Notes under the pieces: model-generated
What the model saw: the letters and a program-made list of their open reading frames with translations, nothing else
Told to the model about the DNA's origin: nothing
The model's database searches: none
Part shown: positions 1 through 59,281 of the stretch, one piece after another
How positions within the stretch are numbered: the stretch's first letter is position 1
Layout: each line of letters starts with the position of its first letter
Translations under genes and position numbers: made by a program
From: Escherichia coli
GTDB lineage: Bacteria > Pseudomonadota > Gammaproteobacteria > Enterobacterales > Enterobacteriaceae
Assembly (NCBI RefSeq): GCF_003334385.1
Contig: NZ_QOWN01000017.1
DNA: 64,000 nt
Reading direction: 5' to 3' (one strand)

Positions 1-477
1 CACGCCCATCACGCTGGAACAGAGAGTCAGCATCAGGCCAAACAGAACCGAGATCCGCGTGCCATAGAGAATGCGTGCCAGCACATCGCCGCCGTTGGCA
101 TCCGTTCCCAGCCAGTTTTGCCGGGAGGGTGGAGAAGGGAAGGGCTTATCGGTAGCAAAGTTGATACTGGTAGCACCAAAGCGAATCGGTGCCCACAGTA
201 CCCAGCCGTTATTTTCCAGCCGTTGTTTCAGCCACGGGTCCTGATAATCAGCCTGACTTGCCAGCGGGCCGCCAAAATCGCTTTCGCTGTAGTTTTTCAA
301 TAACGGGAAATACCAACTGCCGTCATAACGCACCAGCAACGGTTTATCGTTGGCGATAAGTTCAGAACACAAACTCAAACCAAACAAGACGAGGAAAATC
401 CATAACGACCAGTAGCCGCGACGGTTATGACGAAAACGCGCCCAACGGGCCTGATTGACGGGGCTGAGTCGCGACAT
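1..477 (-). CDS. yejE: ABC transporter permease YejE, N-terminal portion only (gene runs off the window start)
   Basis: Minus-strand frame open from 477 to position 1; ATG at 475-477 overlaps the yejB stop (TAATG coupling); translation [34 protein letters not shown]... fits YejE; position after yejB as in the yejABEF operon. Not in ORF track because no stop lies in the window. Confidence 0.75.
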   Translation of the reverse strand, partial: MSRLSPVNQARWARFRHNRRGYWSLWIFLVLFGLSLCSELIANDKPLLVRYDGSWYFPLLKNYSESDFGGPLASQADYQDPWLKQRLENNGWVLWAPIRFGATSINFATDKPFPSPPSRQNWLGTDANGGDVLARILYGTRISVLFGLMLTLCSSVMGV

Positions 478-1571
478 TAACGTCCCTCAAAATCAATACG
501 CGGATCAACCAGCGTATAGCTGATATCACTGACAATATTCAGCAGCAGGCCAATCAGGGTGAAAATATACAAGGTACCAAACATTACAGGATAATCGCGC
601 GAGACGGTCGCTTCGTAGCCCAGTAAGCCCAGACCATTGAGTGAAAACATCACCTCAATCAGCAGCGAGCCGGTAAAAAACATGCTGATAAACGTCGCCG
701 GAAAACCGGCAATCACCAGCAGCATGGCGTTGCGGAACACATGTTTCCAGAGAATATTTTTTTCACTTACCCCTTTCGCACGCGCGGTCACCACGTATTG
801 CTTGCGCACTTCATCAAGGAATGAGTTTTTTGTCAGCATGGTCAGCGCCGCAAAGCCACCAATCACTGTCGCCAGCACCGGCAGTGTGATATGCCACAGA
901 TAATCGGTGATTTTCTGATACCACGGCAGCGAATCAAAGTTAGCGGAAACCAGGCCGCGTAGAGGGAACAGGTCGAAATAGCTGCCGCCCGCGAAGAAGA
1001 CAATCAGCAGGATGGCAAACAAAAAGGCCGGAATGGCGTAGCCGATGATGATAAATGCGCTACTCCAGACGTCAAAGCGGCTCCCATTATAAACAGCTTT
1101 GCGAATGCCTAACGGAATCGACACCAGATAGATAATCAGCGTGCTCCACAATCCGAGGGTGATGGAAACCGGCAGACTGTCTTTAATCAGCGTCAGCACC
1201 GAGGCGCTGCGAAACAGGCTATCGCCAAAATCAAAGCGGATGTAGTCCCAGAGCATTTTGAAGTAACGTTCGTGGATCGGCTTATCAAAACCGTAGCGAT
1301 GAGTGATCTCAGCGATCACTTCTGGATCTAATCCGCGTCCGCCACGGTAATTACTGTCGCTGATATTGCCGACACCCGTTTGCGCATGGCTGGCACGAAC
1401 ACCTTCACCGCCTGCGCCGGGTAATACTCCGGCATTACCAAACTCAATGGCGGCGATGGCCTGGTCGACCGGACCGCCAGGCGCAATTTGCACGATGAAA
1501 AAGTTGATGGTGATAATCGCCCATAATGTTGGGATCACCAGCAACAGACGGCGAATCAGGTAAGCGCCCAT
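477..1571 (-). CDS. yejB: oligopeptide/microcin C ABC transporter permease YejB
   Basis: 364 aa ORF in track; polytopic membrane protein with ABC permease signature; synteny between yejA and yejE. Confidence 0.9.
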
Positions 1572-3386
1572 CTACTCTCCCTGTTTGCTGGCGGACGGCA
1601 GTTTGGCCGCTTTATTGACGTCATACCACCAGGTATCGATACCGAGGCTATAGATGGGGCGCACGGCCGGCTGGGAGAATTTATCCCACCAGGCGAGACG
1701 GTCTTCCGCCATGTACCACATTGGCAGCATGTAATAATTCCACGTTAATACGCGATCCAGTGCTCGCCCCAACGGCAGTAATTTTTCTTTATTTCCCTGC
1801 GCGGCAATAATTTGGTTGATCAGCGAGTCGATAACCGGGCTTTGCACGCCGGGGGCATTATAAGTGGAATTGATATATTCCGATGACCAGGAAATCTGTA
1901 AATCGGAACTGGGTCACGGCATCGCCCGCCATACGCGTGGCATCATGTCATAGTCGCGACTGCGCATGCGGTTAGTGATTTGCGAGTTATCCACCTTGCG
2001 AATGTCCATGTTGATACCTAGCCGTTGCAGGCTGTGCTGGAACGGCAATACCCACTGACTATTGCTGCTTGCGGGAAGCAATAATTCAAAGCTGAGTGGC
2101 TGACCCGTTGTGGCATTAACGCGTTGCTGACCCTTCAGCACCCAGCCCGCTTCGTTGAGAAGTTTGTCGGCTTTTAACAGGTTGTCACGATCGTAGCCAT
2201 CGCCTTTGGATACCGGCGGCTGGTAGATTTGTGTGAAGACTTCTGACGGTAGATCTTTTTTCATTGGTGCCAGAAGCACCAGCTCCGCGGCGTCGGGGTA
2301 ATTTCTGGCCGCGTATTCGGTATTCTGAAAATAACTGTTCGTGCGACTCCAGGCATTGTAAAACAACGCCTTGTTCATCCATTCAAAGTCAAAGGCGAGA
2401 GTGATAGCTTCCCGGACCCGGCGATCGCTGAATACCGGACGTTGGATATTAAACGCCAGCCAACGCGTATCTTGGGCTGATTCGTTCTTTTGCTCATCTT
2501 TGATGATGTATTTTTTATCGAAATTTTTACCGGTATAACGCGTGGCCCAGTTTTTGGCGTCGTTTTCCATACGCAAATCAAAGGCACCTGCTTTAAACGC
2601 TTCAAAGGCGACATTATCATCGAGGTAATAATCGTAGCGAATGGTGTCGAAATTCCAGCGTCCACGGTTTACCGGTAAGTTTGCTGCCCAGTAATCTTTC
2701 ACACGGGAATAGACAATATTTTGCCCCATTTTCCAGGACGTAACGCGGTACGGACCACTGGCAAGCGGAGGCGTGGCGAGCGGGTCGCTAAGTTTGTGAT
2801 CCTTCCAGTACTTTTCTGGAAATACCGGCAGCGAAAACAGACTCAGCATATCTTCTTTGCCGGGTTTAGCTAACTCAATGCGCACGGTTAACGGTGCAAT
2901 GGCTTTGACGGTGGTGCCTTTGTAGACCAGACGAAATTGCGGCACGCCTTCGGTCATAAATTTTTGAAAAGTAAACTCTACATCGCGGGCAGTAATGGGC
3001 GAACCATCATGAAAACGGGCGCGCGGATTAATAGCGACCTCCACCCAGGAATAATCGTCAGCATAGCGTGCGCTTTCAGCAATCAGCGGGTAATAACTGC
3101 CTGGTTCGTCATCGGAAGTCGTAAATAGCGTGTCGTACAGCTGCTCGGTGCGTGCGCCCGGGTTGCCGCGCAGTGCATAGCGGTTGAAATTATCGAAGGT
3201 GCCGAGGGCTGACAACGTTATCTGCCCACCTTTTGGCGCGGCGGGGTTCACATAATCAAAATGGTTGAAATTAAACGCGTACCGGGGTTCGCCCAGCACG
3301 GCAAAGGCATAGCTTTCCTTGATAGCCTGCGCCTGCACACCAAAGGTGAACAGAGCGATAAACAGCAGCAGTATGCGCACAATCAT
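1572..3386 (-). pseudogene. yejA: periplasmic substrate-binding protein YejA interrupted by an in-frame TGA (stop at 1914-1916)
   Basis: Track ORFs 1914..3392 (492 aa) and 1572..1847 (91 aa) are in the same frame, separated only by TGA at 1914-1916; together with start at MIVRILLL (3386) they span 604 codons, the length I recall for intact YejA. Confidence 0.7.
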
Positions 3387-3467
3387 CTGCAACGGATTTC
3401 CTTTTACTCATCATTAGCCGCAATCCGGCATGCTTTCACTATGAATAATAAGGGACGTAAGCACACC

Positions 3468-5024
3468 TTACCACTGCGGCGTATACGGTTTCTTTAGCCA
3501 GCGAACAAAATCGTCCAGCGGTAACGGGCGGCTAATCCAGTAGCCTTGCATGAAATTAACGCCGCGTTCGCTTAGCCATCGCGCCTGTTCCGGCGTTTCG
3601 ACCCCTTCAGCAACCGTCAGCATATTGAGGCGTTTCGCCAGCGTCAGCACCGCGTCAAGTACGGGGGAAGTGATCGTTTCCGTACCGATGGCGTTGATAA
3701 ATCCACGGTCAATTTTCAGATAATCGAGCGTAAAACGCTCAAGATAGATAAGCGCGCTGTGCCCGGTGCCGAAGTCATCAATAGCAATTTCTACGCCGAC
3801 CGAGTGCAGCCAGGCGAAGAGTTGTGTGGCTTCTTGCTCTTTCAACATATCGCGCTCGGTAATTTCCAGCACAATCTGGAAATGGTGTGCGGGCAGGGAA
3901 GTGAGCAGTTTCTGGATATCTGCTTTAAAGCTTTCGCTGTGCAGATGGTCCGGCGCAATGTTAATACCAAATTTGACGCCTACCGGCAGCACTTTTTCTA
4001 ATTCTGCGGCATCGCGGGCAATTAACTCAAACAGGTGCTGAGTCAGCGGCACAATCATCTTTTGCGATTCGGCAAAGTTAATGAAGGCATCCGGGGGAAT
4101 TTCTCCCGCGACAGGATGCCGCCAGCGTAGCAGTACTTCCAGGCCCGTTACTCGCAAAGCTTGTGTATCCACCACCGGTTGATACGCCACGTAAAATTGT
4201 TCGCGCTTGATGGCGGTCATGATTTCTCTGCCGGGGCGCATACGTACGCTCATCAGGTAATAGCAGAGCAGGCCAACGACAGTTCCACTCATGCCGCCCA
4301 GTAAAAATGCGTACCACACATCGTTCCATGTCCAGTCATCTGCATAAAGCCGAACGGTCAGAGGAATGCCCGCAATTTTAGTTTCACGGACTGGCATGTC
4401 GGTTAATTCGTTAACGTTCATCAAACGTGAAGAAAAGGTAGATAGCGCAGTATTGCCAATAATGAGGGCGACGCCATCGTAATCTTCCTGCCGTGAACTA
4501 TAAAAGAGTGAAGGCGTCAGGTTGAGATTCAGAGCGGCAAAGACGCCGCTATTTTTCAGCAAAGGGTTGCGATACCAGATGACGATTGCGGGTTTGTTCG
4601 GCACCATCGGCGTGCCGGGTAAGATCGCCATATCGACGTTTTTATTAATGTCGAGCGCCGGAATCAATTCATTGAGTGGAATGTCCATCTCACCGGTCGC
4701 AGATGAACAGAATGTTTTTTTATCTTTCACCAGCACAAACGTTCGGACATTCATGCTAAACGCTGCGCGGGCGGTCAGTTCGGGGTTAGCTTGCTGGCAG
4801 GTATCTAAGGTCAGCGGCTGGAGCCGGTCAGTAGTGGATTTCAGGTCGGCAAAATAGGTATCGAGATACTTTTGTACGTCGGTAATCAGTGTGTCGTATT
4901 TGACTTCGTGCTTATGCCAGGCCACTAAAAACTGAAGGCAACTCACCAGTATCGCAATCATTACGCCTGCAACAATGCAGGTAAGCAGGAGCTTACGTCC
5001 AAAATTGGGAGCGCGTATGAACAT
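3468..5024 (-). CDS. rtn: membrane-anchored EAL-domain protein Rtn (c-di-GMP phosphodiesterase family)
   Basis: 518 aa ORF; N-terminal TM segment plus C-terminal EAL-like domain; synteny between yejA and mepS. Confidence 0.85.
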   Translation of the reverse strand: MFIRAPNFGRKLLLTCIVAGVMIAILVSCLQFLVAWHKHEVKYDTLITDVQKYLDTYFADLKSTTDRLQPLTLDTCQQANPELTARAAFSMNVRTFVLVKDKKTFCSSATGEMDIPLNELIPALDINKNVDMAILPGTPMVPNKPAIVIWYRNPLLKNSGVFAALNLNLTPSLFYSSRQEDYDGVALIIGNTALSTFSSRLMNVNELTDMPVRETKIAGIPLTVRLYADDWTWNDVWYAFLLGGMSGTVVGLLCYYLMSVRMRPGREIMTAIKREQFYVAYQPVVDTQALRVTGLEVLLRWRHPVAGEIPPDAFINFAESQKMIVPLTQHLFELIARDAAELEKVLPVGVKFGINIAPDHLHSESFKADIQKLLTSLPAHHFQIVLEITERDMLKEQEATQLFAWLHSVGVEIAIDDFGTGHSALIYLERFTLDYLKIDRGFINAIGTETITSPVLDAVLTLAKRLNMLTVAEGVETPEQARWLSERGVNFMQGYWISRPLPLDDFVRWLKKPYTPQW

Positions 5025-6934: not shown

Positions 6935-7921
6935 TTACGCGGTAGTCGCTAAACGAAGCTTCAACAGCGCGCTCTGCAAGGCATTCCAGTCAGCTTCGCT
7001 GCTGGAAATCAGCTCAATACGGCTGTCCGGTGGCGCAACGTTTTGCGTTTCAATGTGCAGGTCATCGCCCTGACGGTTGATTCGCACCAGCCCTTCGGGA
7101 ATACGCAGCACGCCTTTGACGCGTTCCACCGGTGCAAGTCGCGCCCATTCCAGAATGCCAATGGTGTCGAATACCGTATCAGCGTCGAATATCCAGCCGC
7201 AGGCCTGATATCCTTGCCCGCTGTTCAGACTGCGACGCCAGCGTTGATGCTCTGGCAGGCTTAACGCTGCTAACCCTTTTTTCACGACATGCTGATGAGA
7301 ATGCGCGGCGCTGGCGGGCAACTCGGCTAAATTGCGACGCGGCAAATCCAGAAGATGACCGTCAACTTTCCCATGCTCACTGTGAATTAATTGTCGATCG
7401 CCACCATTTTGCTGCCACCAACGCTGTAGCGCTTGCTCACTTTCGGGCGTCGTACGGTCGGATTTATTGGCGACAATGATGTCTGCGGCAGCCAGCTGGT
7501 CACGGAAGTTTTCATTGCTGGCGCTTTTTTCGTCCAGCAGCAAGCGCGGATCGAGAATGCACAAGGTGGCGCGCAGATCTATCCACGGTTCATAGACTGG
7601 TGCGGTTAACAGATCGAGGATCTGTTTCGGATGGCCCAGCCCGGTCGGCTCTATCAACAAGCGGTCTGGTTTTCCCTGACGCAGTAAGGTATTCAACCCT
7701 ACCTGCATGGGTAAACCATTAACGCAGCACATGCAGCCGCCGGGGATCTCTTTCAGCAATGCGCCGCTATCGGCGAGCAAAGCACCATCAATTCCGACTT
7801 CCCCAAATTCATTAACCAGTACCGCCCATTTTTCGTTGGGATCTTTATGGGCTAACAGATGAAGAATCGACGTGGTTTTCCCGCTGCCGAGAAAACCGGT
7901 GATGAGGTTGGTCCTGGTCAC
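6935..7921 (-). CDS. yeiR: CobW/P47K-family zinc-binding GTPase YeiR
   Basis: 328 aa ORF; N-terminal P-loop GFLGSGKTT and CxCC motif; synteny. Confidence 0.85.
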   Translation of the reverse strand: MTRTNLITGFLGSGKTTSILHLLAHKDPNEKWAVLVNEFGEVGIDGALLADSGALLKEIPGGCMCCVNGLPMQVGLNTLLRQGKPDRLLIEPTGLGHPKQILDLLTAPVYEPWIDLRATLCILDPRLLLDEKSASNENFRDQLAAADIIVANKSDRTTPESEQALQRWWQQNGGDRQLIHSEHGKVDGHLLDLPRRNLAELPASAAHSHQHVVKKGLAALSLPEHQRWRRSLNSGQGYQACGWIFDADTVFDTIGILEWARLAPVERVKGVLRIPEGLVRINRQGDDLHIETQNVAPPDSRIELISSSEADWNALQSALLKLRLATTA

Positions 7922-17395: not shown

Positions 17396-18327
17396 AAATT
17401 TCCCCTGAATTATTACAAATTTCCCCGGAAGTGCAGGACGCTTTAAAAAACAAAAAACCGGTTGTGGCGCTGGAATCGACCATTATTTCTCACGGGATGC
17501 CGTTCCCACAAAATGCCCAGACCGCAATTGAAGTTGAAGAAACTATTCGTAAACAGGGCGCTGTACCTGCCACGATCGCCATTATTGGCGGCGTGATGAA
17601 AGTGGGGTTAAGCAAAGAAGAAATTGAATTACTGGGTCGTGAAGGGCATAACGTGACCAAAGTTAGTCGTCGCGATTTACCTTTTGTTGTTGCCGCCGGA
17701 AAAAATGGCGCAACCACTGTGGCTTCAACGATGATTATTGCGGCGCTTGCCGGAATTAAAGTATTTGCCACCGGGGGAATTGGTGGTGTGCATCGCGGGG
17801 CGGAACATACCTTCGATATTTCTGCCGATTTGCAAGAACTGGCAAATACTAATGTCACCGTTGTTTGTGCCGGGGCGAAATCTATTCTCGATTTAGGATT
17901 AACCACTGAGTATTTAGAAACCTTCGGTGTGCCGTTAATTGGCTATCAGACTAAAGCGCTGCCTGCGTTTTTCTGCCGCACCAGCCCGTTTGACGTCAGC
18001 ATTCGTCTCGACAGCGCCAGCGAAATTGCCCGTGCAATGGCGGTGAAATGGCAAAGCGGTCTGAACGGTGGCCTCGTGGTAGCGAACCCGATCCCGGAAC
18101 AGTTTGCTATGCCGGAACACACTATCAATGCGGCGATCGATCAGGCGGTAGCTGAAGCTGAAGCTGAAGCTCAGGGAGTCATTGGTAAAGAAAGTACGCC
18201 ATTCCTGCTGGCGCGCGTTGCTGAACTGACCGGCGGTGACAGCCTGAAATCCAACATCCAGCTGGTGTTCAACAACGCCATTCTGGCGAGCGAAATTGCC
18301 AAAGAATATCAGCGTCTCGCGGGTTAA
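17383..18327 (+). CDS. psuG: pseudouridine-5'-phosphate glycosidase PsuG
   Basis: 314 aa ORF overlapping psuK by 13 nt; indigoidine synthase A-like family; contains (gctgaa)x3 in-frame repeat at 18151-18168. Confidence 0.85.
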   Translation: MSELKISPELLQISPEVQDALKNKKPVVALESTIISHGMPFPQNAQTAIEVEETIRKQGAVPATIAIIGGVMKVGLSKEEIELLGREGHNVTKVSRRDLPFVVAAGKNGATTVASTMIIAALAGIKVFATGGIGGVHRGAEHTFDISADLQELANTNVTVVCAGAKSILDLGLTTEYLETFGVPLIGYQTKALPAFFCRTSPFDVSIRLDSASEIARAMAVKWQSGLNGGLVVANPIPEQFAMPEHTINAAIDQAVAEAEAEAQGVIGKESTPFLLARVAELTGGDSLKSNIQLVFNNAILASEIAKEYQRLAG

Positions 18328-28986: not shown

Positions 28987-30979
28987 ATGTTTAGGTTGAA
29001 CCCTTTCGTACGGGTCGGGCTGTGTTTGTCCGCTATTTCTTGTGCATGGCCTGTGTTAGCGGTCGATGATGATGGCGAAACGATGGTTGTCACTGCATCT
29101 TCCGTGGAACAAAATCTTAAAGATGCACCTGCCAGTATCAGCGTCATTACCCAGGAAGACCTGCAGCGAAAACCGGTACAGAATCTGAAGGATGTCCTCA
29201 AAGAAGTGCCTGGCGTACAACTGACGAACGAAGGGGATAACCGTAAGGGCGTTAGTATTCGTGGTCTGGACAGCAGCTATACCCTGATTCTCGTCGACGG
29301 TAAACGCGTGAACTCCCGCAATGCCGTCTTCCGCCACAATGATTTCGATCTGAACTGGATCCCGGTCGATTCCATCGAACGTATTGAAGTGGTCCGTGGC
29401 CCGATGTCGTCGCTGTACGGTTCCGATGCGCTCGGCGGTGTAGTGAATATCATCACCAAAAAAATCGGTCAGAAATGGTCGGGTACCGTTACCGTCGATA
29501 CCACCATTCAGGAACATCGCGATCGCGGTGACACCTATAACGGTCAGTTCTTTACCAGTGGACCATTAATTGATGGTGTGCTGGGAATGAAAGCTTACGG
29601 CAGCCTGGCAAAACGTGAAAAGGATGACCCGCAAAACTCAACGACCACCGATACCGGAGAAACGCCGCGTATTGAAGGATTCTCCAGCCGCGACGGCAAT
29701 GTCGAATTTGCCTGGACACCGAATCAAAATCACGATTTTACTGCCGGATACGGTTTCGACCGTCAGGATCGTGATTCCGACTCGCTGGACAAAAACCGCC
29801 TGGAACGCCAGAACTACTCCGTCAGCCATAATGGGCGTTGGGATTACGGCACCAGCGAACTGAAATACTACGGTGAGAAAGTCGAGAACAAAAACCCTGG
29901 CAACAGCAGCCCGATAACTTCCGAAAGCAATACGGTCGACGGCAAATACACGTTGCCGCTGACGGCGATTAATCAGTTTCTCACGGTTGGCGGTGAATGG
30001 CGTCACGACAAACTTAGCGATGCGGTGAACCTGACCGGGGGAACCAGCTCCAAAACGTCTGCCAGCCAGTACGCGCTGTTTGTGGAAGATGAATGGCGGA
30101 TCTTCGAGCCGCTGGCGCTGACGACCGGCGTGCGTATGGACGATCACGAAACCTACGGTGAACACTGGAGTCCGCGTGCCTACCTGGTTTTATAACGCCA
30201 CCGACACCGTAACGGTGAAAGGGGGCTGGGCGACGGCATTTAAAGCACCTTCTCTGTTGCAACTTAGCCCTGACTGGACGAGCAATTCCTGCCGTGGCGC
30301 ATGTAAGATTGTGGGTAGCCCGGATCTGAAACCAGAAACCAGCGAAAGTTGGGAGCTGGGGCTTTACTACATGGGTGAAGAAGGCTGGCTGGAAGGGGTT
30401 GAATCCAGCGTTACCGTTTTCCGTAACGATGTGAAAGATCGTATCAGCATCAGCCGTACGTCTGACGTCAACGCTGCACCGGGCTACCAAAACTTTGTTG
30501 GTTTTGAGACGGGCGCTAACGGACGGCGCATACCGGTATTTAGCTACTACAACGTTAACAAAGCTCGTATTCAGGGCGTGGAAACCGAACTGAAAATTCC
30601 GTTCAACGATGAATGGAAACTGTCGATCAACTACACCTACAACGATGGTCGTGATGTCAGCAACGGCGAAAACAAACCGCTATCCGATCTGCCGTTCCAT
30701 ACTGCTAACGGTACGCTGGACTGGAAACCGCTGGCGCTGGAAGACTGGTCATTCTATGTTTCTGGGCACTATACCGGGCAGAAACGCGCCGACAGCGCGA
30801 CGGCTAAAACACCGGGCGGTTATACCATCTGGAATACCGGCGCGGCCTGGCAGGTGACTAAAGACGTCAAACTGCGCGCAGGCGTGCTGAACCTTGGCGA
30901 CAAGGATCTCAGTCGTGACGACTACAGCTATAACGAAGACGGACGTCGTTACTTTATGGCAGTGGATTATCGCTTCTGA
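28987..30979 (+). pseudogene. cirA: catecholate siderophore / colicin I receptor CirA disrupted by a +1 frameshift (T-run 30188-30191)
   Basis: Two overlapping track ORFs (28987..30195, 402 aa; 30158..30979, 273 aa) that together give a TonB-dependent receptor once one T is removed from the TTTT run at 30188-30191; total span 1993 nt = 664 codons + 1 nt. Confidence 0.8.
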
Positions 30980-46775: not shown

Positions 46776-46998
46776 TGGCGTTCCTTTATTTGTGAGTGCT
46801 GAATAAGTATAGGAAAAAACGAAGCCCTTTGCCGTTATCCATAAACGATTAAGATAAATCGGAAGATATCATTCACTTAGTGTATATTTTTCTGGATATG
46901 TCGTTTTATTGCCACTGATGTATTGCCACGCGAAACTAAAAAATATATCGCAACACACGGTAATCTCCGCGCACCTTTTCTTACCTGATTATTCCCCC

Positions 46999-48435
46999 AT
47001 GAATCGTGATTCCTTTTATCCAGCCATCGCCTGTTTTCCGCTGTTACTGATGCTGGCCGGGTGTGCGCCTATGCATGAAACCCGCCAGGCGTTAAGCCAG
47101 CAAACGCCCGCTGCACAAGTTGACACCGCATTACCCACGGCGCTGAAAAATGGTTGGCCAGACAGCCAATGGTGGCTGGAGTATCACGATAATCAACTCA
47201 CTTCCTTAATTAACAATGCACTACAGAACGCACCGGATATGCAGGTGGCTGAACAGCGCATTCAGCTAGCTGAAGCCCAGGCGAAGGCAGTTGCCACTCA
47301 GGATGGTCCGCAGATCGACTTTTCGGCGGATATGGAGCGGCAAAAAATGTCGGCAGAAGGCTTAATGGGGCCGTTTGCTCTGAACGATCCGGCCGCAGGT
47401 ACGACCGGCCCGTGGTACACCAACGGTACTTTTGGCTTAACGGCGGGCTGGCATCTCGATATCTGGGGAAAGAATCGGGCGGAGGTTACTGCCCGCCTGG
47501 GTACGGTTAAAGCACGGGCGGCGGAACGCGAGCAAACCCGCCAATTGCTGGCTGGCAGCGTAGCCCGCCTGTACTGGGAGTGGCAAACCCAGGCGGCGTT
47601 AAACACGGTCTTGCAGCAAATAGAAAAAGAGCAGAACACCATTATCGCGACCGATCGCCAGCTATATCAGAACGGGATTACTTCTTCAGTTGAAGGTGTG
47701 GAAACCGATATTAATGCCAGCAAAACCCGGCAGCAGCTCAACGATGTCGCGGGGAAAATGAAAATTATTGAGGCACGGTTAAGCGCACTTACAAATAACC
47801 AGACAAAGTCATTGAAGCTTAAACCGGTCGCGTTGCCGAAAGTGGCAAGCCAGCTTCCTGATGAACTGGGGTACTCCTTACTGGCCCGGCGGGCAGATTT
47901 GCAGGCGGCGCACTGGTACGTTGAGTCATCGCTAAGCACCATTGATGCGGCAAAAGCGGCATTTTATCCTGACATCAACCTGATGGCCTTCCTGCAACAG
48001 GATGCGTTGCACTTAAGCGATCTGTTCCGTCATTCCGCGCAGCAAATGGGCGTTACGGCAGGCCTGACGCTACCCATTTTCGATAGTGGTCGTCTTAACG
48101 CCAATCTCGATATCGCAAAAGCCGAAAGCAACTTGTCTATCGCCAGCTACAACAAAGCGGTGGTTGAAGCGGTGAATGACGTGGCGCGGGCAGCCAGTCA
48201 GGTTCAGACACTGGCGGAGAAAAACCAGCATCAGGCGCAAATTGAGCGCGATGCCTTGCGTGTGGTAGGTCTTGCGCAGGCGCGCTTTAACGCGGGCATC
48301 ATTGCTGGTTCCCGCGTCAGCGAAGCCAGAATCCCCGCGCTGCGTGAGCGGGCCAATGGCCTGTTATTGCAAGGGCAGTGGCTGGATGCCTCCATTCAAC
48401 TCACTGGTGCGTTGGGCGGGGGTTACAAACGCTGA
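46999..48435 (+). CDS. mdtQ: outer membrane efflux lipoprotein (OMF/NodT family) MdtQ, apparently intact
   Basis: Track ORF 46909..48435 uninterrupted; lipoprotein signal with lipobox LLMLAGC from MNRDSFYPA (46999), 478 aa; OMF-type coiled-coil/beta-barrel repeats. Confidence 0.75.
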   Translation: MNRDSFYPAIACFPLLLMLAGCAPMHETRQALSQQTPAAQVDTALPTALKNGWPDSQWWLEYHDNQLTSLINNALQNAPDMQVAEQRIQLAEAQAKAVATQDGPQIDFSADMERQKMSAEGLMGPFALNDPAAGTTGPWYTNGTFGLTAGWHLDIWGKNRAEVTARLGTVKARAAEREQTRQLLAGSVARLYWEWQTQAALNTVLQQIEKEQNTIIATDRQLYQNGITSSVEGVETDINASKTRQQLNDVAGKMKIIEARLSALTNNQTKSLKLKPVALPKVASQLPDELGYSLLARRADLQAAHWYVESSLSTIDAAKAAFYPDINLMAFLQQDALHLSDLFRHSAQQMGVTAGLTLPIFDSGRLNANLDIAKAESNLSIASYNKAVVEAVNDVARAASQVQTLAEKNQHQAQIERDALRVVGLAQARFNAGIIAGSRVSEARIPALRERANGLLLQGQWLDASIQLTGALGGGYKR

Positions 48436-49957: not shown

Positions 49958-50126
49958 AGGCCAGTCTGTCTCCCTTTGGTTGCCAGTAAGCATACACCCT
50001 GTGAATCATTCACGCTGAAAAAGGACGTTCATCAGACAGTGAAAATTACATGGGCGAACAAAAAATAATCACAAGCTGACTTATACTTGAACTGTCAGGT
50101 TCATGAACTCACAACAAGGGGGCGGT

Positions 50127-50714
50127 ATGAGCCATGTCTGGGGACTGTTTTCCCATCCCGATCGTGAAATGCAGGTGATTAATCGCGAAAACGAAACGAT
50201 TTCTCACCATTACACCCACCACGTTTTGCTGATGGCGGCGATTCCGGTGATTTGCGCCTTCATTGGCACTACACAGATTGGCTGGAATTTTGGCGATGGC
50301 ACTATCCTGAAGTTATCCTGGTTTACCGGACTGGCGCTGGCTGTCTTGTTTTACGGCGTTATGCTGGCTGGGGTCGCGGTGATGGGGCGGGTCATCTGGT
50401 GGATGGCGCGTAATTATCCGCAGCGTCCGTCACTTGCGCACTGCATGGTCTTCGCGGGCTACGTTGCAACTCCGCTGTTTTTAAGCGGTCTGGTGGCGCT
50501 TTATCCACTGGTCTGGTTGTGTGCGCTGGTCGGCACGGTGGCGCTGTTTTACACCGGCTACCTGCTTTACCTTGGTATTCCGAGCTTCCTGAATATCAAC
50601 AAAGAGGAAGGCCTTAGCTTCTCTAGTTCGACGCTGGCGATTGGCGTGCTGGTACTGGAAGTGCTGCTCGCCCTAACCGTTATACTATGGGGCTACGGTT
50701 ATCGTTTGTTCTAG
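50127..50714 (+). CDS. yohC: Yip1-family inner membrane protein YohC
   Basis: Track ORF 50103..50714; start MSHVWGLFSHP, 195 aa, multi-TM. Confidence 0.75.
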   Translation: MSHVWGLFSHPDREMQVINRENETISHHYTHHVLLMAAIPVICAFIGTTQIGWNFGDGTILKLSWFTGLALAVLFYGVMLAGVAVMGRVIWWMARNYPQRPSLAHCMVFAGYVATPLFLSGLVALYPLVWLCALVGTVALFYTGYLLYLGIPSFLNINKEEGLSFSSSTLAIGVLVLEVLLALTVILWGYGYRLF

Positions 50715-50887
50715 AAAGTTCTTTGACGTTGCATTGCTGGCGTAAATGTCAGCAATGCAGCATTTCCTCACGATTCTCCTTTGACGATCGCACTTTTTGC
50801 TCGTTATGATGGCGTCGCTAGCCTCAGTAAATCCTTACTCCGGCGGTGCGCAACCCGTGCGCGTGAACCACTATCTGAATGCTCATC

Positions 50888-51820
50888 ATGCCGAAATTTC
50901 GAGTTTCTTTATTTAGCCTGGCCCTGATGCTGGCTGTGCCTTTTGCACCGCAGGCCGTTGCGAAAACGGCAGCCGCTACCACCGCTTCACAACCGGAAAT
51001 TGCCTCCGGTAGCGCGATGATTGTTGATCTGAATACCAACAAAGTGATCTATTCGAACCACCCGGATCTGGTGCGTCCGATTGCGTCTATCAGCAAATTA
51101 ATGACCGCGATGGTTGTGCTGGATGCACGACTGCCGCTGGATGAAAAACTAAAAGTGGATATCAGCCAGACGCCGGAGATGAAAGGGGTCTATTCGCGCG
51201 TACGACTGAATAGCGAAATCAGCCGTAAAGATATGCTGTTGCTGGCGCTGATGTCTTCAGAAAACCGCGCGGCGGCAAGCCTTGCGCACCATTATCCCGG
51301 TGGTTACAAAGCCTTTATTAAGGCAATGAATGCGAAAGCGAAATCGCTCGGAATGAACAACACGCGCTTTGTTGAACCTACCGGATTGTCGGTGCATAAC
51401 GTTTCAACTGCCCGTGACTTAACCAAACTGCTCATTGCCAGCAAACAATATCCGTTGATCGGGCAGTTAAGTACTACCCGGGAAGATATGGCAACCTTCT
51501 CTAATCCGACGTATACGCTGCCGTTCCGCAATACTAATCATCTGGTGTATCGCGATAACTGGAATATTCAGTTAACCAAAACCGGCTTTACCAATGCGGC
51601 GGGCCATTGTCTGGTGATGCGTACGGTTATCAATAATAAACCGGTGGCGCTGGTAGTGATGGACGCGTTTGGCAAATATACCCATTTTGCCGATGCCAGC
51701 CGCCTGCGTACCTGGATTGAAACCGGTAAAGTGATGCCTGTGCCGGCAGCAGCGTTGAGCTATAAAAAACAAAAAGCCGCCCAAATGGCGGCGGCGGGGC
51801 AGACGGCACAGAACGATTAA
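50888..51820 (+). CDS. pbpG: D-alanyl-D-alanine endopeptidase PBP7 (PbpG)
   Basis: Track ORF 50879..51820; signal peptide then SxxK (SISK), SxN and KTG motifs of class C low-MW PBPs. Confidence 0.85.
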
Positions 51821-51827
51821 GTGAATT

Positions 51828-51857
51828 CGGATGGCGATACTCTGCCATCCGTAATTT
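51828..51857. terminator. bidirectional terminator hairpin between convergent pbpG and dld
   Basis: cggatggc gatactct gccatccg flanked by T-run on plus strand. Confidence 0.5.
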
Positions 51858-53573
51858 TTACTCCACTTCCTGCCAGTTTTTCCGTTTACTGGTTTTACCG
51901 ATCCCCGGATTCATGCTGTTGGTCGGATCGTTCTCGCGATAGAACTTCTGCAACGTCTCCGGTGCTTTATACAAATGACCGACGTTATGCTCGGCAGGGT
52001 ACTGCGCGCCGCGCTGCTGTAGCAGTTCCAGCATCTGTTCTTTTAACGCATGCACATCCACGCCTTTTTTCACTATGTAATCCTGATGGAAGACATAGCA
52101 CATAAAATGGCCGTAATAGAGCTTGTGCACCAGCTGGCTGTCGATCTCCGGCGGTAAATGCTCATACCACTCGGTGTCGTTACGCCGCAGAGCGATATCC
52201 AACGCCAGAATGTCTTCGACTTCATCGGAATGCACCGCCTGATAACGAATTGCTGCGCCCGCAGCGGCGAAACGGTGTAAAAACGCTTTGCTGCCTTCCT
52301 CCGGCGTACAGACAAAGAAATCGCCTTCGGCCTGTTTGAAATAATCCACCAGCCACGATTTGGCTTCGCCCACGCCATCGCCCGCCATTTTTAACAGCAG
52401 ATGATGCTCGTATTTATCGCGCCAGTTTTTCATGCGCGGCGGTAAATGGCTGGGGAACAGGTGACCGAATTTTTGCATCGCACGGTCAGTAAAATGCGGA
52501 CGGAAGAATTTCACTTTCTCCAGCATCGCATCGGTGCGTCCCTTGAGATTAAAGAAGAACGGCATCTTGTCGGTGCCTAACTTATCAATCATCAGGAAGG
52601 TGTCTTTGCCGTATTTTTCCGCAATATCGTAGATATTCCGGTGCATATATTCCCCGGCAACCGGCAGATTTTCGAAGTTAGCCAGAATATGACGGCGGAT
52701 TTCGGTCAGCACTTCCGGCTGGTTGGTGCCGATATAAAACACCTGCTGATTTTTTTCCGCTTCGAAGGTATCAAGACGTACTGCAAAGACCGCCAGCTTC
52801 CCGGCGCAACCAGAAGATTCAAATAACCGATCAGGATCGGCGTTATAACGTGCGGGCGTGTCGGCTTCAATATCACGAACGCGGTGGACATAGTCATAAT
52901 CGTGGGCGTGACGACCATCGTGACGCACATCGTCATCTTTGATGCGATCATCATCCAGCTTGCTAAGGATCTGCTCCGGCGTTTCGCCCAGATCAATCCC
53001 CAGATGGTTCACCAGCGTCAGTTTGCCGTCTTCATTTATACGCGCGAATAACGACATTTCGGTATACGCCGGGCCACGTTGCACCAGCGAGCCGCCGGAG
53101 TTGTTACAAATACCGCCGATGACCGATGCGCCTATACACGATGATCCAATCACTGAGTGCGGTTCGCGTCCCAGCGGTTTGAGGGCTTTTTCCAGCGAAT
53201 AGAGCGTGGTGCCCGGATAGGCCAGCACCTGTTCGCCCTTGCCAAGAACGTGCAGCTTGTCGAGACGCAGGGTGCTGATGATAACGACATCGCGATCATA
53301 ATCGTTACCGTTTGGCGTCGATCCTTCGGTCAGGCCTGTATTGGCGGCCTGCATCAGAATAATTTTGTCGGCGGTGACGCAGGCTTTCAGCACCCGCCAC
53401 AATTCTAGTAGTGAGCCAGGGAAAACGACAGCCAGCGCGTCGCCCTGACCAGAACGGAAGCCCTTGCGATAGCGGGCCGTTTTTGCGGGATCGGTGAGCA
53501 GGTGTGAAGAACCCACCAGACGAGCAAGTTCATTCAAAAAGGCTTTATTATCAGTTGTTGTCATGGAAGACAT
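51858..53573 (-). CDS. dld: FAD-dependent D-lactate dehydrogenase Dld
   Basis: Track ORF 51858..53606; start MSSMTTTDNKAFLNEL (53573), 571 aa. Confidence 0.9.
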   Translation of the reverse strand: MSSMTTTDNKAFLNELARLVGSSHLLTDPAKTARYRKGFRSGQGDALAVVFPGSLLELWRVLKACVTADKIILMQAANTGLTEGSTPNGNDYDRDVVIISTLRLDKLHVLGKGEQVLAYPGTTLYSLEKALKPLGREPHSVIGSSCIGASVIGGICNNSGGSLVQRGPAYTEMSLFARINEDGKLTLVNHLGIDLGETPEQILSKLDDDRIKDDDVRHDGRHAHDYDYVHRVRDIEADTPARYNADPDRLFESSGCAGKLAVFAVRLDTFEAEKNQQVFYIGTNQPEVLTEIRRHILANFENLPVAGEYMHRNIYDIAEKYGKDTFLMIDKLGTDKMPFFFNLKGRTDAMLEKVKFFRPHFTDRAMQKFGHLFPSHLPPRMKNWRDKYEHHLLLKMAGDGVGEAKSWLVDYFKQAEGDFFVCTPEEGSKAFLHRFAAAGAAIRYQAVHSDEVEDILALDIALRRNDTEWYEHLPPEIDSQLVHKLYYGHFMCYVFHQDYIVKKGVDVHALKEQMLELLQQRGAQYPAEHNVGHLYKAPETLQKFYRENDPTNSMNPGIGKTSKRKNWQEVE

Positions 53574-53768
53574 TTTCCACTCCTTGTGGTGGCGAAAAAA
53601 TATCACAAACTAGAATAGCGCCTTGTATAACAATTCAGCGAGTGAATATTTTGAAAATTCAGACAATAAACTGAGCATTCTTTTTCTCTCTCCATCATGC
53701 TTATGGCAAACTACGGTTTTTGCACCATTTTCGCTGCCACGTCGGGCAACAAAGGAAGAAAAATCCAT

Positions 53769-56066
53769 ATGAAATGGCTATGTTCAGTAGGAATCGCGGT
53801 GAGTCTGGCCCTGCAGCCAGCACTGGCGGATGATTTATTCGGCAACCATCCATTAACGCCCGAAGCGCGGGATGCGTTCGTCACCGAACTGCTTAAGAAA
53901 ATGACAGTTGATGAGAAAATTGGTCAGCTGCGCTTAATCAGCGTCGGCCCGGATAACCCGAAAGAGGCGATCCGCGAGATGATCAAAGACGGTCAGGTTG
54001 GGGCGATTTTCAACACCGTAACCCGTCAGGATATCCGCGCCATGCAGGATCAGGTGATGGAATTAAGCCGCCTGAAAATTCCTCTTTTCTTTGCTTACGA
54101 CGTGCTGCACGGTCAGCGCACGGTGTTCCCGATTAGCCTCGGTCTGGCCTCGTCTTTTAACCTCGATGCAGTGAAAACGGTCGGACGTGTCTCTGCTTAT
54201 GAAGCGGCAGATGATGGCCTGAATATGACCTGGGCACCGATGGTCGATGTCTCGCGCGATCCGCGCTGGGGACGTGCTTCCGAAGGTTTTGGCGAAGATA
54301 CGTATCTCACCTCAACAATGGGTAAAACCATGGTGGAAGCGATGCAGGGTAAAAGCCCGGCAGATCGCTACTCGGTGATGACCAGCGTCAAACACTTTGC
54401 CGCATACGGCGCGGTAGAAGGCGGTAAAGAGTACAACACCGTCGATATGAGTCCGCAGCGCCTGTTTAATGATTATATGCCGCCGTACAAAGCGGGGCTG
54501 GACGCAGGCAGCGGCGCGGTGATGGTGGCGCTGAACTCGCTGAACGGCACGCCAGCCACCTCCGATTCCTGGCTGCTGAAAGATGTTCTGCGCGACCAGT
54601 GGGGCTTTAAAGGCATCACCGTTTCCGATCACGGTGCAATCAAAGAGCTGATTAAACATGGCACGGCGGCAGACCCGGAAGATGCGGTGCGCGTGGCGCT
54701 GAAATCCGGAATCAACATGAGCATGAGCGACGAGTACTACTCGAAGTATCTGCCTGGGTTGATTAAATCCGGCAAAGTGACGATGGCAGAGCTGGACGAT
54801 GCTGCCCGCCATGTACTGAACGTTAAATATGATATGGGGTTGTTTAACGACCCATACAGCCATTTGGGGCCGAAAGAGTCTGACCCGGTGGATACCAATG
54901 CCGAAAGCCGCCTGCACCGTAAAGAAGCGCGTGAAGTGGCGCGCGAAAGCTTGGTGTTGCTGAAAAACCGTCTCGAAACGTTACCGCTGAAAAAATCGGC
55001 CACCATTGCGGTGGTTGGGCCACTGGCGGACAGTAAACGTGACGTGATGGGCAGCTGGTCCGCAGCCGGTGTTGCCGATCAATCCGTGACCGTACTGACC
55101 GGGATTAAAAATGCCGTCGGTGAAAACGGTAAAGTGCTGTATGCCAAAGGGGCGAACGTTACCAGTGACAAAGGCATTATCGATTTCCTGAATCAGTATG
55201 AAGAAGCGGTCAAAGTCGATCCGCGTTCGCCGCAAGAGATGATTGATGAAGCGGTGCAGACGGCGAAACAATCTGATGTGGTGGTGGCTGTAGTCGGTGA
55301 AGCACAGGGGATGGCGCACGAAGCCTCCAGCCGGACCGATATCACTATTCCGCAAAGCCAACGTGACTTGATTGCGGCGCTGAAAGCCACCGGTAAACCG
55401 CTGGTGCTGGTGCTGATGAACGGGCGTCCGCTGGCGCTGGTGAAAGAAGATCAGCAGGCTGATGCGATTCTGGAAACCTGGTTTGCGGGGACTGAAGGCG
55501 GTAATGCAATTGCCGATGTATTGTTTGGCGATTACAACCCGTCCGGCAAGCTGCCAATGTCCTTCCCGCGTTCTGTCGGGCAGATCCCGGTGTACTACAG
55601 CCATCTGAATACCGGTCGCCCGTATAATGCCGACAAGCCGAACAAATACACTTCGCGTTATTTTGATGAAGCTAACGGGGCGTTGTATCCGTTCGGCTAT
55701 GGGCTGAGCTACACCACTTTCACCGTCTCTGATGTGAAACTTTCTGCGCCGACCATGAAGCGTGACGGCAAAGTGACTGCCAGCGTGCAGGTGACGAACA
55801 CCGGTAAGCGCGAGGGTGCCACGGTAGTGCAGATGTACTTGCAGGATGTGACGGCTTCCATGAGTCGCCCTGTGAAACAGCTGAAAGGCTTTGAGAAAAT
55901 CACCCTGAAACCGGGCGAAACTCAGACTGTCAGCTTCCCGATCGATATTGAGGCGCTGAAGTTCTGGAATCAACAGATGAAATATGACGCCGAGCCTGGC
56001 AAGTTCAATGTCTTTATCGGCACTGATTCCGCACGCGTTAAGAAAGGCGAGTTTGAGTTGCTGTAA
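53769..56066 (+). CDS. bglX: periplasmic beta-glucosidase BglX (GH3)
   Basis: Track ORF 53697..56066; signal peptide MKWLCSVGIAVSLALQPALA; glycoside hydrolase family 3 domains; 765 aa. Confidence 0.85.
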   Translation: MKWLCSVGIAVSLALQPALADDLFGNHPLTPEARDAFVTELLKKMTVDEKIGQLRLISVGPDNPKEAIREMIKDGQVGAIFNTVTRQDIRAMQDQVMELSRLKIPLFFAYDVLHGQRTVFPISLGLASSFNLDAVKTVGRVSAYEAADDGLNMTWAPMVDVSRDPRWGRASEGFGEDTYLTSTMGKTMVEAMQGKSPADRYSVMTSVKHFAAYGAVEGGKEYNTVDMSPQRLFNDYMPPYKAGLDAGSGAVMVALNSLNGTPATSDSWLLKDVLRDQWGFKGITVSDHGAIKELIKHGTAADPEDAVRVALKSGINMSMSDEYYSKYLPGLIKSGKVTMAELDDAARHVLNVKYDMGLFNDPYSHLGPKESDPVDTNAESRLHRKEAREVARESLVLLKNRLETLPLKKSATIAVVGPLADSKRDVMGSWSAAGVADQSVTVLTGIKNAVGENGKVLYAKGANVTSDKGIIDFLNQYEEAVKVDPRSPQEMIDEAVQTAKQSDVVVAVVGEAQGMAHEASSRTDITIPQSQRDLIAALKATGKPLVLVLMNGRPLALVKEDQQADAILETWFAGTEGGNAIADVLFGDYNPSGKLPMSFPRSVGQIPVYYSHLNTGRPYNADKPNKYTSRYFDEANGALYPFGYGLSYTTFTVSDVKLSAPTMKRDGKVTASVQVTNTGKREGATVVQMYLQDVTASMSRPVKQLKGFEKITLKPGETQTVSFPIDIEALKFWNQQMKYDAEPGKFNVFIGTDSARVKKGEFELL

Positions 56067-56076
56067 TGCTTTAGTA

Positions 56077-56150
56077 AGGGCGCGACGTTTGCGCCCTTTG
56101 TAGGCCGGATAAGGCGCTCGCGCCGCATCCGGCAGGAAACGCCGGACCGA
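56077..56150 (+). terminator. terminator hairpin after bglX followed by a REP element
   Basis: agggcgc gacgttt gcgccct then tgtaggccggataaggcgctcgcgccgcatccggcagg. Confidence 0.5.
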
Positions 56151-56276
56151 ATATGCCTCTTAAGTATTTATCTGATTCTGCAACTGAATCCTTCCGCTCA
56201 AGCTAACCCCGCCATTATCAACTATGCTTTTCTCTTAATTCGCTGAAAACAACAGTAAAAGAATGAGGAAAGCATC

Positions 56277-57194
56277 ATGCCACTCTTAAAGCTCTGGGCA
56301 GGTTCACTGGTTATGTTGGCAGCCGTGAGCCTGCCGCTACAGGCGGCTTCCCCCGTTAAAGTCGGTTCAAAAATCGATACCGAAGGTGCGCTACTCGGCA
56401 ATATCATTTTGCAGGTGCTGGAAAGCCACGGCGTACCGACGGTGAATAAAGTGCAACTCGGAACGACTCCTGTGGTGCGCGGGGCGATTACTTCCGGTGA
56501 ACTGGATATCTATCCGGAATATACCGGCAATGGCGCTTTCTTCTTTAAAGATGAAAACGATGCAGCGTGGAAAAACGCGCAGCAAGGTTACGAGAAAGTC
56601 AAAAAGCTCGATTCGGAGCACAACAAGTTAATCTGGCTGACGCCCGCGCCTGCAAATAACACCTGGACTATCGCCGTGCGTCAGGATGTGGCAGAGAAAA
56701 ATAAACTCACTTCGCTTGCCGACCTGAGTCGTTATCTGCAAGAGGGCGGCACCTTCAAACTGGCAGCCTCGGCAGAGTTTATCGAACGCGCCGATGCGTT
56801 ACCCGCGTTTGAAAAAGCCTATGGCTTTAAGCTCGGTCAGGATCAGTTGCTGTCACTGGCTGGTGGCGACACGGCGGTGACGATCAAAGCCGCTGCCCAG
56901 CAAACCTCTGGCGTTAATGCTGCAATGGCTTACGGCACTGACGGCCCGGTAGCGGCGCTGGGGCTGCAAACCTTAAGCGATCCGCAAGGTGTGCAACCTA
57001 TCTACGCGCCTGCACCAGTGGTGCGTGAGTCGGTGTTGAGGGAGTATCCGCAAATGGCACAGTGGCTACAGCCAGTCTTCGCCAGCCTCGATGCAAAAAC
57101 ATTGCAGCAACTGAATGCCAGCATTGCTGTGGAAGGACTGGATGCCAAAAAAGTGGCTGCCGACTACCTGAAACAAAAAGGGTGGACGAAGTAA
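56277..57194 (+). CDS. osmF: glycine betaine-binding periplasmic protein OsmF (YehZ)
   Basis: 305 aa with signal peptide; first gene of yehZYXW-type ABC operon. Confidence 0.85.
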   Translation: MPLLKLWAGSLVMLAAVSLPLQAASPVKVGSKIDTEGALLGNIILQVLESHGVPTVNKVQLGTTPVVRGAITSGELDIYPEYTGNGAFFFKDENDAAWKNAQQGYEKVKKLDSEHNKLIWLTPAPANNTWTIAVRQDVAEKNKLTSLADLSRYLQEGGTFKLAASAEFIERADALPAFEKAYGFKLGQDQLLSLAGGDTAVTIKAAAQQTSGVNAAMAYGTDGPVAALGLQTLSDPQGVQPIYAPAPVVRESVLREYPQMAQWLQPVFASLDAKTLQQLNASIAVEGLDAKKVAADYLKQKGWTK

Positions 57195-57200
57195 TTTCCC

Positions 57201-59277: not shown

Positions 59278-59281
59278 GCGT

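What the first reader, a model, noticed from the sequence alone, without database searches (positions are those of the whole stretch)
1914..1916. In-frame TGA interrupts yejA
The two track ORFs covering yejA are in the same frame and separated only by TGA at 1914-1916 (...RVWRAMP*PSSDLQISW...). Total length otherwise equals the expected 604 codons, so this looks like a single nonsense substitution, plausibly TGG to TGA. YejA is the substrate-binding component of the YejABEF peptide importer, which is also the uptake route for microcin C. The truncated product would lack about 110 C-terminal residues.
Basis: seen in the sequence. Interest (0 to 1): 0.5.

Follow-up and report, generated by a model that had tools for sequence, protein, structure and literature searches.

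The report
Nonsense mutation W491* in E. coli yejA
A single G-to-A change turns tryptophan codon 491 of yejA, the binding protein of the peptide/microcin C importer, into a stop codon in one small E. coli lineage. This is an ordinary, recent gene-inactivating mutation, not a new kind of feature.

Summary
yejA lies on the minus strand (ATG 3386, natural stop 1572-1574) and has one in-frame TGA at 1914-1916. In K-12 and the closest complete genomes codon 491 is TGG (Trp), so the change is a single G>A on the coding strand at window 1914. Without it the gene has the expected 604 codons. None of the 5,270 complete E. coli genomes matched by a 58-nt probe carries the TGA. An independent assembly (SRR3823653) is identical to the window over 9.4 kb including the TGA, so a sequencing error is unlikely. 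The allele marks a small recent sub-clade of a phylogroup-A-like lineage related to strain SCU-104. The 490-residue product lacks 114 residues: the end of lobe 2, the second hinge strand, the last lobe-1 strand and four ligand contacts (Ser475, Asp476, Thr489, Tyr490). It cannot work as a binding protein. yejB, yejE and yejF remain intact. The predicted outcome is loss or strong reduction of YejABEF import, and so microcin C resistance. Some leak is possible, because Trp-tRNA readthrough of Pro-UGA-C would rebuild the wild-type protein. The same W491* occurs on a second haplotype, and other yejA-inactivating alleles exist. At this database size that does not show selection. Interest is low.

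The parts
1917..3386 (-). yejA codons 1-490: signal peptide 1-19, lobe 1 and most of lobe 2 of the binding protein
   Evidence: 99.8% DNA identity and full synteny with K-12 yejA. The exact 490-aa product is in the public collection and hits PF00496 SBP_bac_5.
1914..1916 (-). Premature stop TGA replacing Trp491 (TGG). The SNP is at 1914. The context is CCG-TGA-C (Pro-UGA-C).
   Evidence: TGG in K-12, SCU-104, P13-6 and EC2. 0 of 5,270 complete genomes match the TGA probe exactly. The same base is in the independent assembly L003.
1572..1913 (-). Untranslated yejA 3' remnant: codons 492-604 plus the natural stop TAG at 1572-1574. It encodes ligand contacts Ser475, Asp476, Thr489, Tyr490 (mature numbering), hinge 540-542 and the last lobe-1 segment.
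   Evidence: The frame stays open and is identical to K-12 over this segment. Structural boundaries and contacts come from PMC10924461.
1572..1847 (-). Mechanical 91-aa ORF (GTG start) within the remnant, often called as a separate gene in assemblies with a disrupted yejA. No Shine-Dalgarno sequence and no signal peptide, so probably not expressed.
477..1571 (-). yejB permease, intact (364 aa). Its ATG directly follows the yejA stop, and it has its own GGGAG Shine-Dalgarno sequence inside the yejA 3' end.
   Evidence: One synonymous window-specific SNP at 885.
1..477 (-). yejE permease, 3' part (cut off by the window start). Intact as far as it can be seen.
   Evidence: In the identical-haplotype contig L003, yejE (341 aa) and yejF (529 aa) are full length.
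1877..1909 (-). Local RNA hairpin starting 5 nt after the UGA. It is also present in wild-type alleles, so it is not a dedicated recoding signal.
   Evidence: z = -2.2. No Rfam family match in 1400-3600.

Best explanation
This is a real, inherited nonsense mutation (Trp491 TGG>TGA) in yejA, carried by a small, recent sub-lineage of commensal-type E. coli. Translation normally ends after Pro490. The exported 471-residue mature fragment lacks the last third of lobe 2, one of the two hinge strands, the C-terminal lobe-1 strand and four ligand-contacting residues. It therefore cannot close on a peptide or dock productively on YejBE, and is probably degraded. The YejABEF importer is consequently lost or strongly reduced, and the predicted phenotype is resistance to microcin C and related Trojan-horse peptides. 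Two modifiers are inferred and not shown. First, the 342 nt of untranslated mRNA begins with a C-rich, G-poor stretch, which could allow Rho-dependent polarity on yejBEF. Second, a small fraction of ribosomes should read UGA with Trp-tRNA(Trp), which regenerates exactly wild-type YejA, so the allele may be a strong hypomorph and not a null. Shown here: the mutation, its direction, its inheritance, its rarity and what it removes. Inferred: loss of function, the phenotype, polarity and leak.
For: The mutation and its direction: (TGG in four reference genomes). Rarity: (0 exact among 5,270 complete genomes). A TGG control pattern found 15 metagenome contigs and the TGA pattern 0. Inheritance, not error: L003 from SRR3823653 is 100% identical over 9,386 nt including the TGA, with 8 further similar places. 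Recent origin: the rest of the operon is intact. The window-specific marker proteins yeiG S257C and psuT S179R are on only 5-6 contigs, against 63-99 contigs for the older markers. What is lost: Pfam SBP_bac_5 spans residues 98-502. E. coli YejA structures exist (7Z6F, 8FSQ-S, 7ATR). Lobe and hinge boundaries and the contacts Ser475, Asp476, Thr489, Tyr490 are in PMC10924461. Function of the system: deleting any one yej gene gives microcin C resistance (PMC10924461). Leak: about 2% (37 C) and 4% (25 C) UGA readthrough through Trp-tRNA(Trp) versus RF2 in a K-12 reporter (PMC10570021). C-terminal Pro slows termination (PMC7246954, PMC3834316). Polarity: 31% C and 18% G in the first 78 nt after the stop.
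Against: No phenotype, protein or RNA data are available here. The readthrough figure comes from a K-12 reporter in a different context; from my own recall, natural isolates usually carry a more active RF2 than K-12. yejB has its own Shine-Dalgarno sequence, so polarity may be small. The read-level check of this exact isolate could not be run.
Confidence: 0.85

Rival explanations
1. Adaptive loss. The stop was selected because blocking YejABEF protects against microcin C-type peptide-nucleotide antibiotics made by competing gut enterobacteria. A UGA at a Trp codon would give a leaky allele that a single step can revert.
For: yej knockouts are microcin C resistant. The same W491* sits on a second, unrelated haplotype (L021). 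Several other yejA-inactivating alleles exist: delG1460, W500* on two haplotypes, S502*, and +/-C at nt 1531. The same lineage also carries a frameshifted cirA, another bacteriocin gate.
Against: One nonsense change among 12 lineage-specific SNPs in 50 kb is not unusual. The search that found the other alleles can only see lesions near codons 483-513. In a collection of hundreds of thousands of E. coli assemblies, the same G>A transition in a non-essential gene is expected to recur by mutation alone. yejA is present at 80% or more of its length in 5,421 of 5,426 complete genomes and none carries this stop, so loss has not spread. The cirA frameshift is older and is shared with SCU-104, which has an intact yejA.
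Confidence: 0.2
2. The gene is functionally intact thanks to readthrough. Pro-UGA-C is weak enough that Trp insertion yields sufficient wild-type YejA, so the stop has little phenotypic effect.
For: UGA is read by Trp-tRNA(Trp) at 2-4% in a K-12 reporter. C-terminal Pro impairs release. From my own recall, UGA followed by C is the weakest tetranucleotide stop in E. coli (Poole, Brown and Tate 1995). The downstream frame and yejBEF are undamaged.
Against: A few percent of normal binding-protein level is a large reduction. An intact downstream frame is equally expected for a very recent mutation. No conservation of the TGA in other lineages suggests any use.
Confidence: 0.1
3. It is a sequencing or assembly error in the source genome.
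For: It is a single-base substitution, and the reads of this isolate were not available.
Against: An independently assembled contig from another run (L003) is identical over 9.4 kb including the TGA, with 8 similar places. A second haplotype (L021) also carries it. It is a substitution, not a homopolymer indel.
Confidence: 0.03
4. It is programmed recoding, i.e. selenocysteine insertion or programmed readthrough at a conserved UGA.
For: A hairpin begins 5 nt after the UGA.
Against: The codon is TGG in all other genomes examined. The hairpin is present in wild-type alleles too. No Rfam family, SECIS included, matches at E<=1. The solved YejA structures have Trp here.
Confidence: 0.01

Closest known systems
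E. coli K-12 yejA (b2177), substrate-binding protein of the YejABEF peptide / microcin C ABC importer; PDB 7Z6F, 8FSQ-8FSS, 7ATR
   Same: Same locus and synteny (pdeN-yejA-yejB-yejE-yejF). 1811 of 1815 nt are identical, and the protein is identical for residues 1-490 and 492-604.
   Different: Codon 491 is TGA instead of TGG, so the normal product stops at residue 490.
Laboratory yej transposon and deletion mutants selected for microcin C resistance (Novikova et al. 2007, as cited in PMC10924461)
   Same: Loss of the binding protein of the same transporter, so the expected phenotype is the same.
   Different: This is a natural point nonsense allele near the 3' end, potentially leaky, and not a null deletion or insertion. 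Its phenotype is untested.
Other natural yejA-inactivating alleles in public E. coli assemblies (delG1460, W500*, S502*, +/-C at nt 1531, ISApl1 insertion in strain E423)
   Same: Independent disruptions of the same gene, with yejBEF left in place.
   Different: Different positions and mutation types. W491* is found only on the window/L003 haplotype and on L021.
Classical leaky UGA nonsense mutants, read through by near-cognate Trp-tRNA(Trp)
   Same: A UGA stop in E. coli, competing with RF2. Here the inserted residue would be the original one.
   Different: Readthrough at this site has not been measured. The context (Pro-UGA-C) is only inferred to be weak.

Membership tests
yejA ortholog (YejABEF binding protein, Pfam SBP_bac_5, cluster C) | Conserved position between pdeN and yejB-yejE-yejF | tested here: met
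   the gene order is identical in K-12, SCU-104 and the window.
yejA ortholog (YejABEF binding protein, Pfam SBP_bac_5, cluster C) | Sequence identity to the characterised and crystallised E. coli YejA | tested here: met
   4 nt differences in 1815. K-12 YejA equals the PDB 7Z6F chain over residues 20-604.
yejA ortholog (YejABEF binding protein, Pfam SBP_bac_5, cluster C) | SBP_bac_5 domain | tested here: met
   PF00496 spans residues 98-502 of the K-12 protein. The 490-aa product still hits PF00496, but the last 12 residues of the matched region (491-502) are lost.
yejA ortholog (YejABEF binding protein, Pfam SBP_bac_5, cluster C) | Uninterrupted 604-codon reading frame encoding both lobes and both hinge strands | tested here: not met
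   TGA at codon 491. It removes mature residues 472-585, including hinge 540-542.
Pseudogene / loss-of-function allele caused by a nonsense mutation | In-frame stop where intact orthologs have a sense codon, with the derived state in this lineage | tested here: met
   TGG in K-12, SCU-104, P13-6 and EC2. No exact TGA probe match in 5,270 complete genomes.
Pseudogene / loss-of-function allele caused by a nonsense mutation | Heritable: present in independent assemblies | tested here: met
   L003 plus 8 similar places; L021.
Pseudogene / loss-of-function allele caused by a nonsense mutation | Actual loss of protein function or phenotype | not testable with these tools
   This needs a microcin C sensitivity assay and a YejA western blot. 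It is inferred from the structure.
Programmed UGA recoding (selenocysteine or programmed readthrough) | UGA conserved among orthologs | tested here: not met
Programmed UGA recoding (selenocysteine or programmed readthrough) | Dedicated downstream RNA element (SECIS or a known readthrough stimulator) | tested here: not met
   No Rfam match at E<=1. The local hairpin is part of the wild-type coding sequence.

The most novel reading that the evidence does not exclude
W491* could be a recurrently selected 'dimmer' allele. A UGA at a Trp codon in a weak Pro-UGA-C context would cut YejA to a few percent, enough to escape microcin C-type Trojan-horse antibiotics. The readthrough product would still be exactly wild type, and one transition would restore the gene. 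Its presence on two haplotypes, and in a lineage that has also lost the colicin/microcin receptor CirA, would then reflect bacteriocin-driven selection in the gut.
Probability: 0.08. Interest if true: 0.55.

Novelty: new member of a known kind. Interest (0 to 1): 0.2.

Why it matters
This matters mainly for annotation and phenotype prediction. Isolates of this sub-lineage should be annotated with yejA as a pseudogene (W491*), and are predicted to be resistant or much less sensitive to microcin C and to synthetic peptide conjugates that enter through YejABEF. It is also a caution when counting alleles by product sequence: many database '490-aa YejA' entries are contig-end truncations, not this allele. 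It does not reveal a new mechanism.

Tried and rejected
(1) Sequencing artefact: rejected, because independent assemblies carry the same base. (2) Selenocysteine or programmed recoding: rejected. The codon is TGG elsewhere, no Rfam hit was found, and the hairpin is part of the wild-type sequence. (3) Shigella-type genome decay: rejected. The window is collinear with commensal E. coli SCU-104, differing by 30 SNPs and one 6-bp indel in 64 kb, with no IS elements in the region. The only other broken gene seen is cirA. (4) An IS insertion hotspot to explain contigs that end at codon 490 in L004-L007: the only IS found in yejA (ISApl1, strain E423) is near codon 224. Those contig ends are best treated as chance breaks, and they do not count as TGA alleles. 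(5) A Dcm or deaminase hotspot at 1914: the context GGGCCAC is not CCWGG and not 5'-TC. Only the neighbouring SNP at 2472 lies in a Dcm site. (6) A hypermutation or recombination patch to explain four C>T changes in 1.6 kb: the clustering is only marginal (scan P about 0.05). No complete genome carries the synonymous variants on a similar background, so no donor could be identified, and this is left open. (7) Strain identity: accession numbers (QOWN01, GCA_003334385, SRR3823653, ERR1948963) gave no hits in the paper library. (8) Metagenome scan for the TGA allele: 0 hits, but the TGG control gave only 15, so the scan has little power.

Full report
OBSERVATION. yejA lies on the minus strand of the window. 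The K-12-equivalent ATG is at 3386 and the natural stop (TAG) at 1572-1574, directly followed by the ATG of yejB. Translating 3392-1572 gives one open frame broken by a single stop...RVWRAMP*PSSDLQISW.... That stop is TGA on the minus strand, i.e. tca at 1914-1916 on the plus strand. Base-by-base comparison with K-12 MG1655 (L001) and the best database hit SCU-104 (L002) shows no length difference: 1815 nt, or 604 codons plus the stop. There are four substitutions relative to K-12. Three are synonymous (Q305, L456, P483). The fourth is codon 491 TGG (Trp) changed to TGA, at window position 1914. The only adjustments are that the gene is on the minus strand and that 114 residues are lost, not about 110.

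IS IT REAL, AND HOW COMMON IS IT? No complete E. coli RefSeq genome is identical in yejA; the best has three mismatches. A 58-nt probe centred on the TGA was designed so that only an exact match reaches 99% identity. It found 5,270 genomes, all in the 90-99% bands and none exact. The allele is therefore absent from that collection.

It is not an error, though. The exact 490-residue product is in the public protein collection. One contig that encodes it (L003, Logan assembly of SRR3823653) is 100% identical to the window over 9,386 nt, including the TGA, and 8 similar places were not displayed.

One caution applies. Other database '490-aa' entries (L004-L007) are unrelated genotypes whose contigs simply end after codon 490. 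They are not TGA alleles. A scan of JGI metagenome contigs found the TGA pattern 0 times and the TGG control 15 times, so that scan has little power.

LINEAGE. The whole 64-kb window is collinear with the human commensal strain SCU-104, differing by 30 SNPs and one 6-bp indel. Polarising the differences with K-12, P13-6 and EC2 gives 12 window-specific SNPs and one in-frame 6-bp insertion in the first 50 kb. W491* is the only one of them that introduces a stop.

Exact-sequence look-ups of the variant proteins show nested clades. The cirA frameshift fragment is on about 99 contigs, and psuG+2aa and rihB D11E are on 63 each. nupX P51L is on 24, yeiG S257C on 6 and psuT S179R on 5. The yejA stop belongs with the youngest and smallest group, for example assemblies GCA_003334385.1 and GCA_014465035.1. 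In L003, yejB, yejE and yejF are full length, as expected for a recent event.

WHAT IS LOST. Pfam SBP_bac_5 covers residues 98-502. E. coli YejA has been crystallised (7Z6F, 8FSQ-S, 7ATR). In mature numbering (precursor minus 19), lobe 1 is residues 1-286 plus 540-579, lobe 2 is 287-539, and the hinge is formed by 282-287 and 540-542 (PMC10924461). The stop corresponds to mature residue 472.

The fragment therefore lacks the last 68 residues of lobe 2, one of the two hinge strands and the C-terminal lobe-1 segment. It also lacks four ligand-contacting residues just after the stop. Ser475 and Asp476 hold the ligand's arginine side chain. Thr489 and Tyr490 hydrogen-bond the ligand's main chain. 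A Venus-flytrap binding protein missing these parts cannot function; this step is an inference from the structure. Deleting any one of the four yej genes confers microcin C resistance (PMC10924461, citing Novikova et al.). The predicted phenotype is therefore microcin C resistance.

MODIFIERS (INFERRED).

(a) Leak. In E. coli, UGA is read at a low rate by Trp-tRNA(Trp) competing with RF2. A K-12 reporter gave about 2% at 37 C and 4% at 25 C (PMC10570021). Because the ancestral codon was Trp, the readthrough product would be exactly wild-type YejA. The context is CCG-UGA-C. C-terminal proline slows release and induces SsrA tagging (Hayes et al. 2002, as cited in PMC3834316 and PMC7246954). From my own recall, UGA-C is the weakest tetranucleotide stop in E. 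coli, and natural isolates usually have a more active RF2 than K-12. Neither of these two recalled points was tested here.

(b) Polarity. The stop leaves 342 nt untranslated before yejB. The first 78 nt are 31% C and 18% G, a composition compatible with Rho loading. However, yejB has its own GGGAG Shine-Dalgarno sequence.

(c) The 91-aa downstream ORF (GTG at 1847) has no Shine-Dalgarno sequence or signal peptide and is probably not expressed.

RECODING EXCLUDED. The codon is TGG in every other genome examined. No Rfam family matches 1400-3600 at E<=1. The hairpin at 1877-1909 (z = -2.2) is part of the wild-type coding sequence. Only 24-30 aa ORFs lie on the opposite strand at the site.

DRIFT OR SELECTION? 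Looking up the 91-aa remnant ORF revealed other natural yejA lesions: delG1460, W500* (TAG) on two haplotypes, S502*, and +/-C in a C-run at nt 1531. It also revealed the same W491* TGA in L021 (GCA_907175675.1).

L021 lacks all of the window's other derived variants (885, 1938, 2019, 2472) and has two private ones. SCU-104 shares 2019A and the cirA frameshift with the window but has TGG. The TGA therefore either arose twice or moved on a very short recombination tract.

This is suggestive of selection but weak. The look-up only detects lesions around codons 483-513. G>A is the commonest mutation type. In a collection of hundreds of thousands of E. coli assemblies, recurrence at a given site of a non-essential gene is expected by mutation alone. 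One nonsense change among 12 lineage-specific SNPs is also unremarkable. I therefore rank 'recent loss-of-function allele, cause of fixation unknown, probably drift' first, and adaptive loss under microcin C-type pressure as a minority rival.

COMPARISON WITH WHAT IS KNOWN. The locus is a member of the yejA orthologous group by synteny, identity and domain, but it fails the intact-frame criterion. It is a nonsense pseudogene, or hypomorph, of a well-characterised gene. The expected effect is the same as that of laboratory yej knockouts. This specific natural allele is not described in the papers searched, but it is already present in public assemblies.

VERDICT. This is an ordinary lineage-restricted nonsense mutation and its interest is low. 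The residual novelty lies only in the possible leaky-hypomorph or recurrent-selection reading.

Noticed in passing
window 28987-30979 (+), insertion at 30185-30188: cirA (catecholate siderophore receptor, which from my recall is the colicin Ia/Ib and microcin receptor) carries a +1 frameshift, T3>T4. It is split into ORFs 28987-30195 and 30158-30979. The frameshift is shared with SCU-104 (annotated 'frameshifted') and absent from K-12, P13-6 and EC2. The exact 402-aa fragment is on about 99 contigs. It is a second bacteriocin/siderophore entry gate broken in the same 64 kb, and it is older than the yejA stop.
   Followed up: partly
window 885, 1914, 1938, 2472: Four of the 12 window-specific SNPs fall within 1,588 bp of yejB-yejA. 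All are C>T on the + strand (G>A on the coding strand). The scan-statistic P is about 0.05. Position 2472 is the inner C of a CCTGG Dcm site; the others are not. No complete genome shares the synonymous variants on a similar background, so no recombination donor was identified.
   Followed up: partly
L021 (GCA_907175675.1), locus 962-2434; also L017-L026: The same W491* TGA occurs on a different yejA-yejB haplotype. Other natural yejA-inactivating alleles exist: delG1460, W500* on two haplotypes, S502*, +/-C at nt 1531, and an ISApl1 insertion near codon 224 in strain E423 (L027).
   Followed up: partly
L004-L007, locus position 7470-7471: Contigs from at least four unrelated E. coli genotypes end exactly after yejA codon 490. 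They yield partial products identical to the true 490-aa truncated protein, which inflates the apparent count of the allele. They are probably chance contig ends, but the number (about 15 places) is somewhat high and unexplained.
   Followed up: partly
window 18150-18155 (+), psuG: A window-specific in-frame 6-bp insertion adds Ala-Glu to an AEAEAEA repeat in pseudouridine-5'-phosphate glycosidase. The exact protein is on 63 contigs.
   Followed up: no
window 20602 (+), rihB codon 11: A D11E substitution lies in the N-terminal DCDPGHDD motif of ribosylpyrimidine nucleosidase RihB (now DCEPGHDD). The exact protein is on 63 contigs. In the relatives SCU-104 and EC2, rihB is annotated as a pseudogene (internal stop, frameshift), so this gene may be decaying repeatedly.
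   Followed up: no
window about 60883-64000 (-): A prophage end (tyrosine integrase 60883-62169, excisionase 62203-62457, DUF551 protein 62941-63885) directly abuts mlrA. Only 458 of 5,426 complete genomes cover at least 80% of window 50001-64000.
   Followed up: no
window 1877-1909 (-): An 8-bp-stem hairpin starts 5 nt after the premature UGA (MFE z-score -2.2 for the 86-nt segment). It is also present in wild-type yejA, so its position next to the stop is coincidental. It could nevertheless influence termination or readthrough.
   Followed up: partly
window about 46998-48434 (+), mdtQ: mdtQ is intact in the window, SCU-104, P13-6 and EC2, whereas K-12 has a 1-nt deletion (at window 47146) and is annotated as frameshifted. 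From my recall, this is the known K-12 pseudogene.
   Followed up: no
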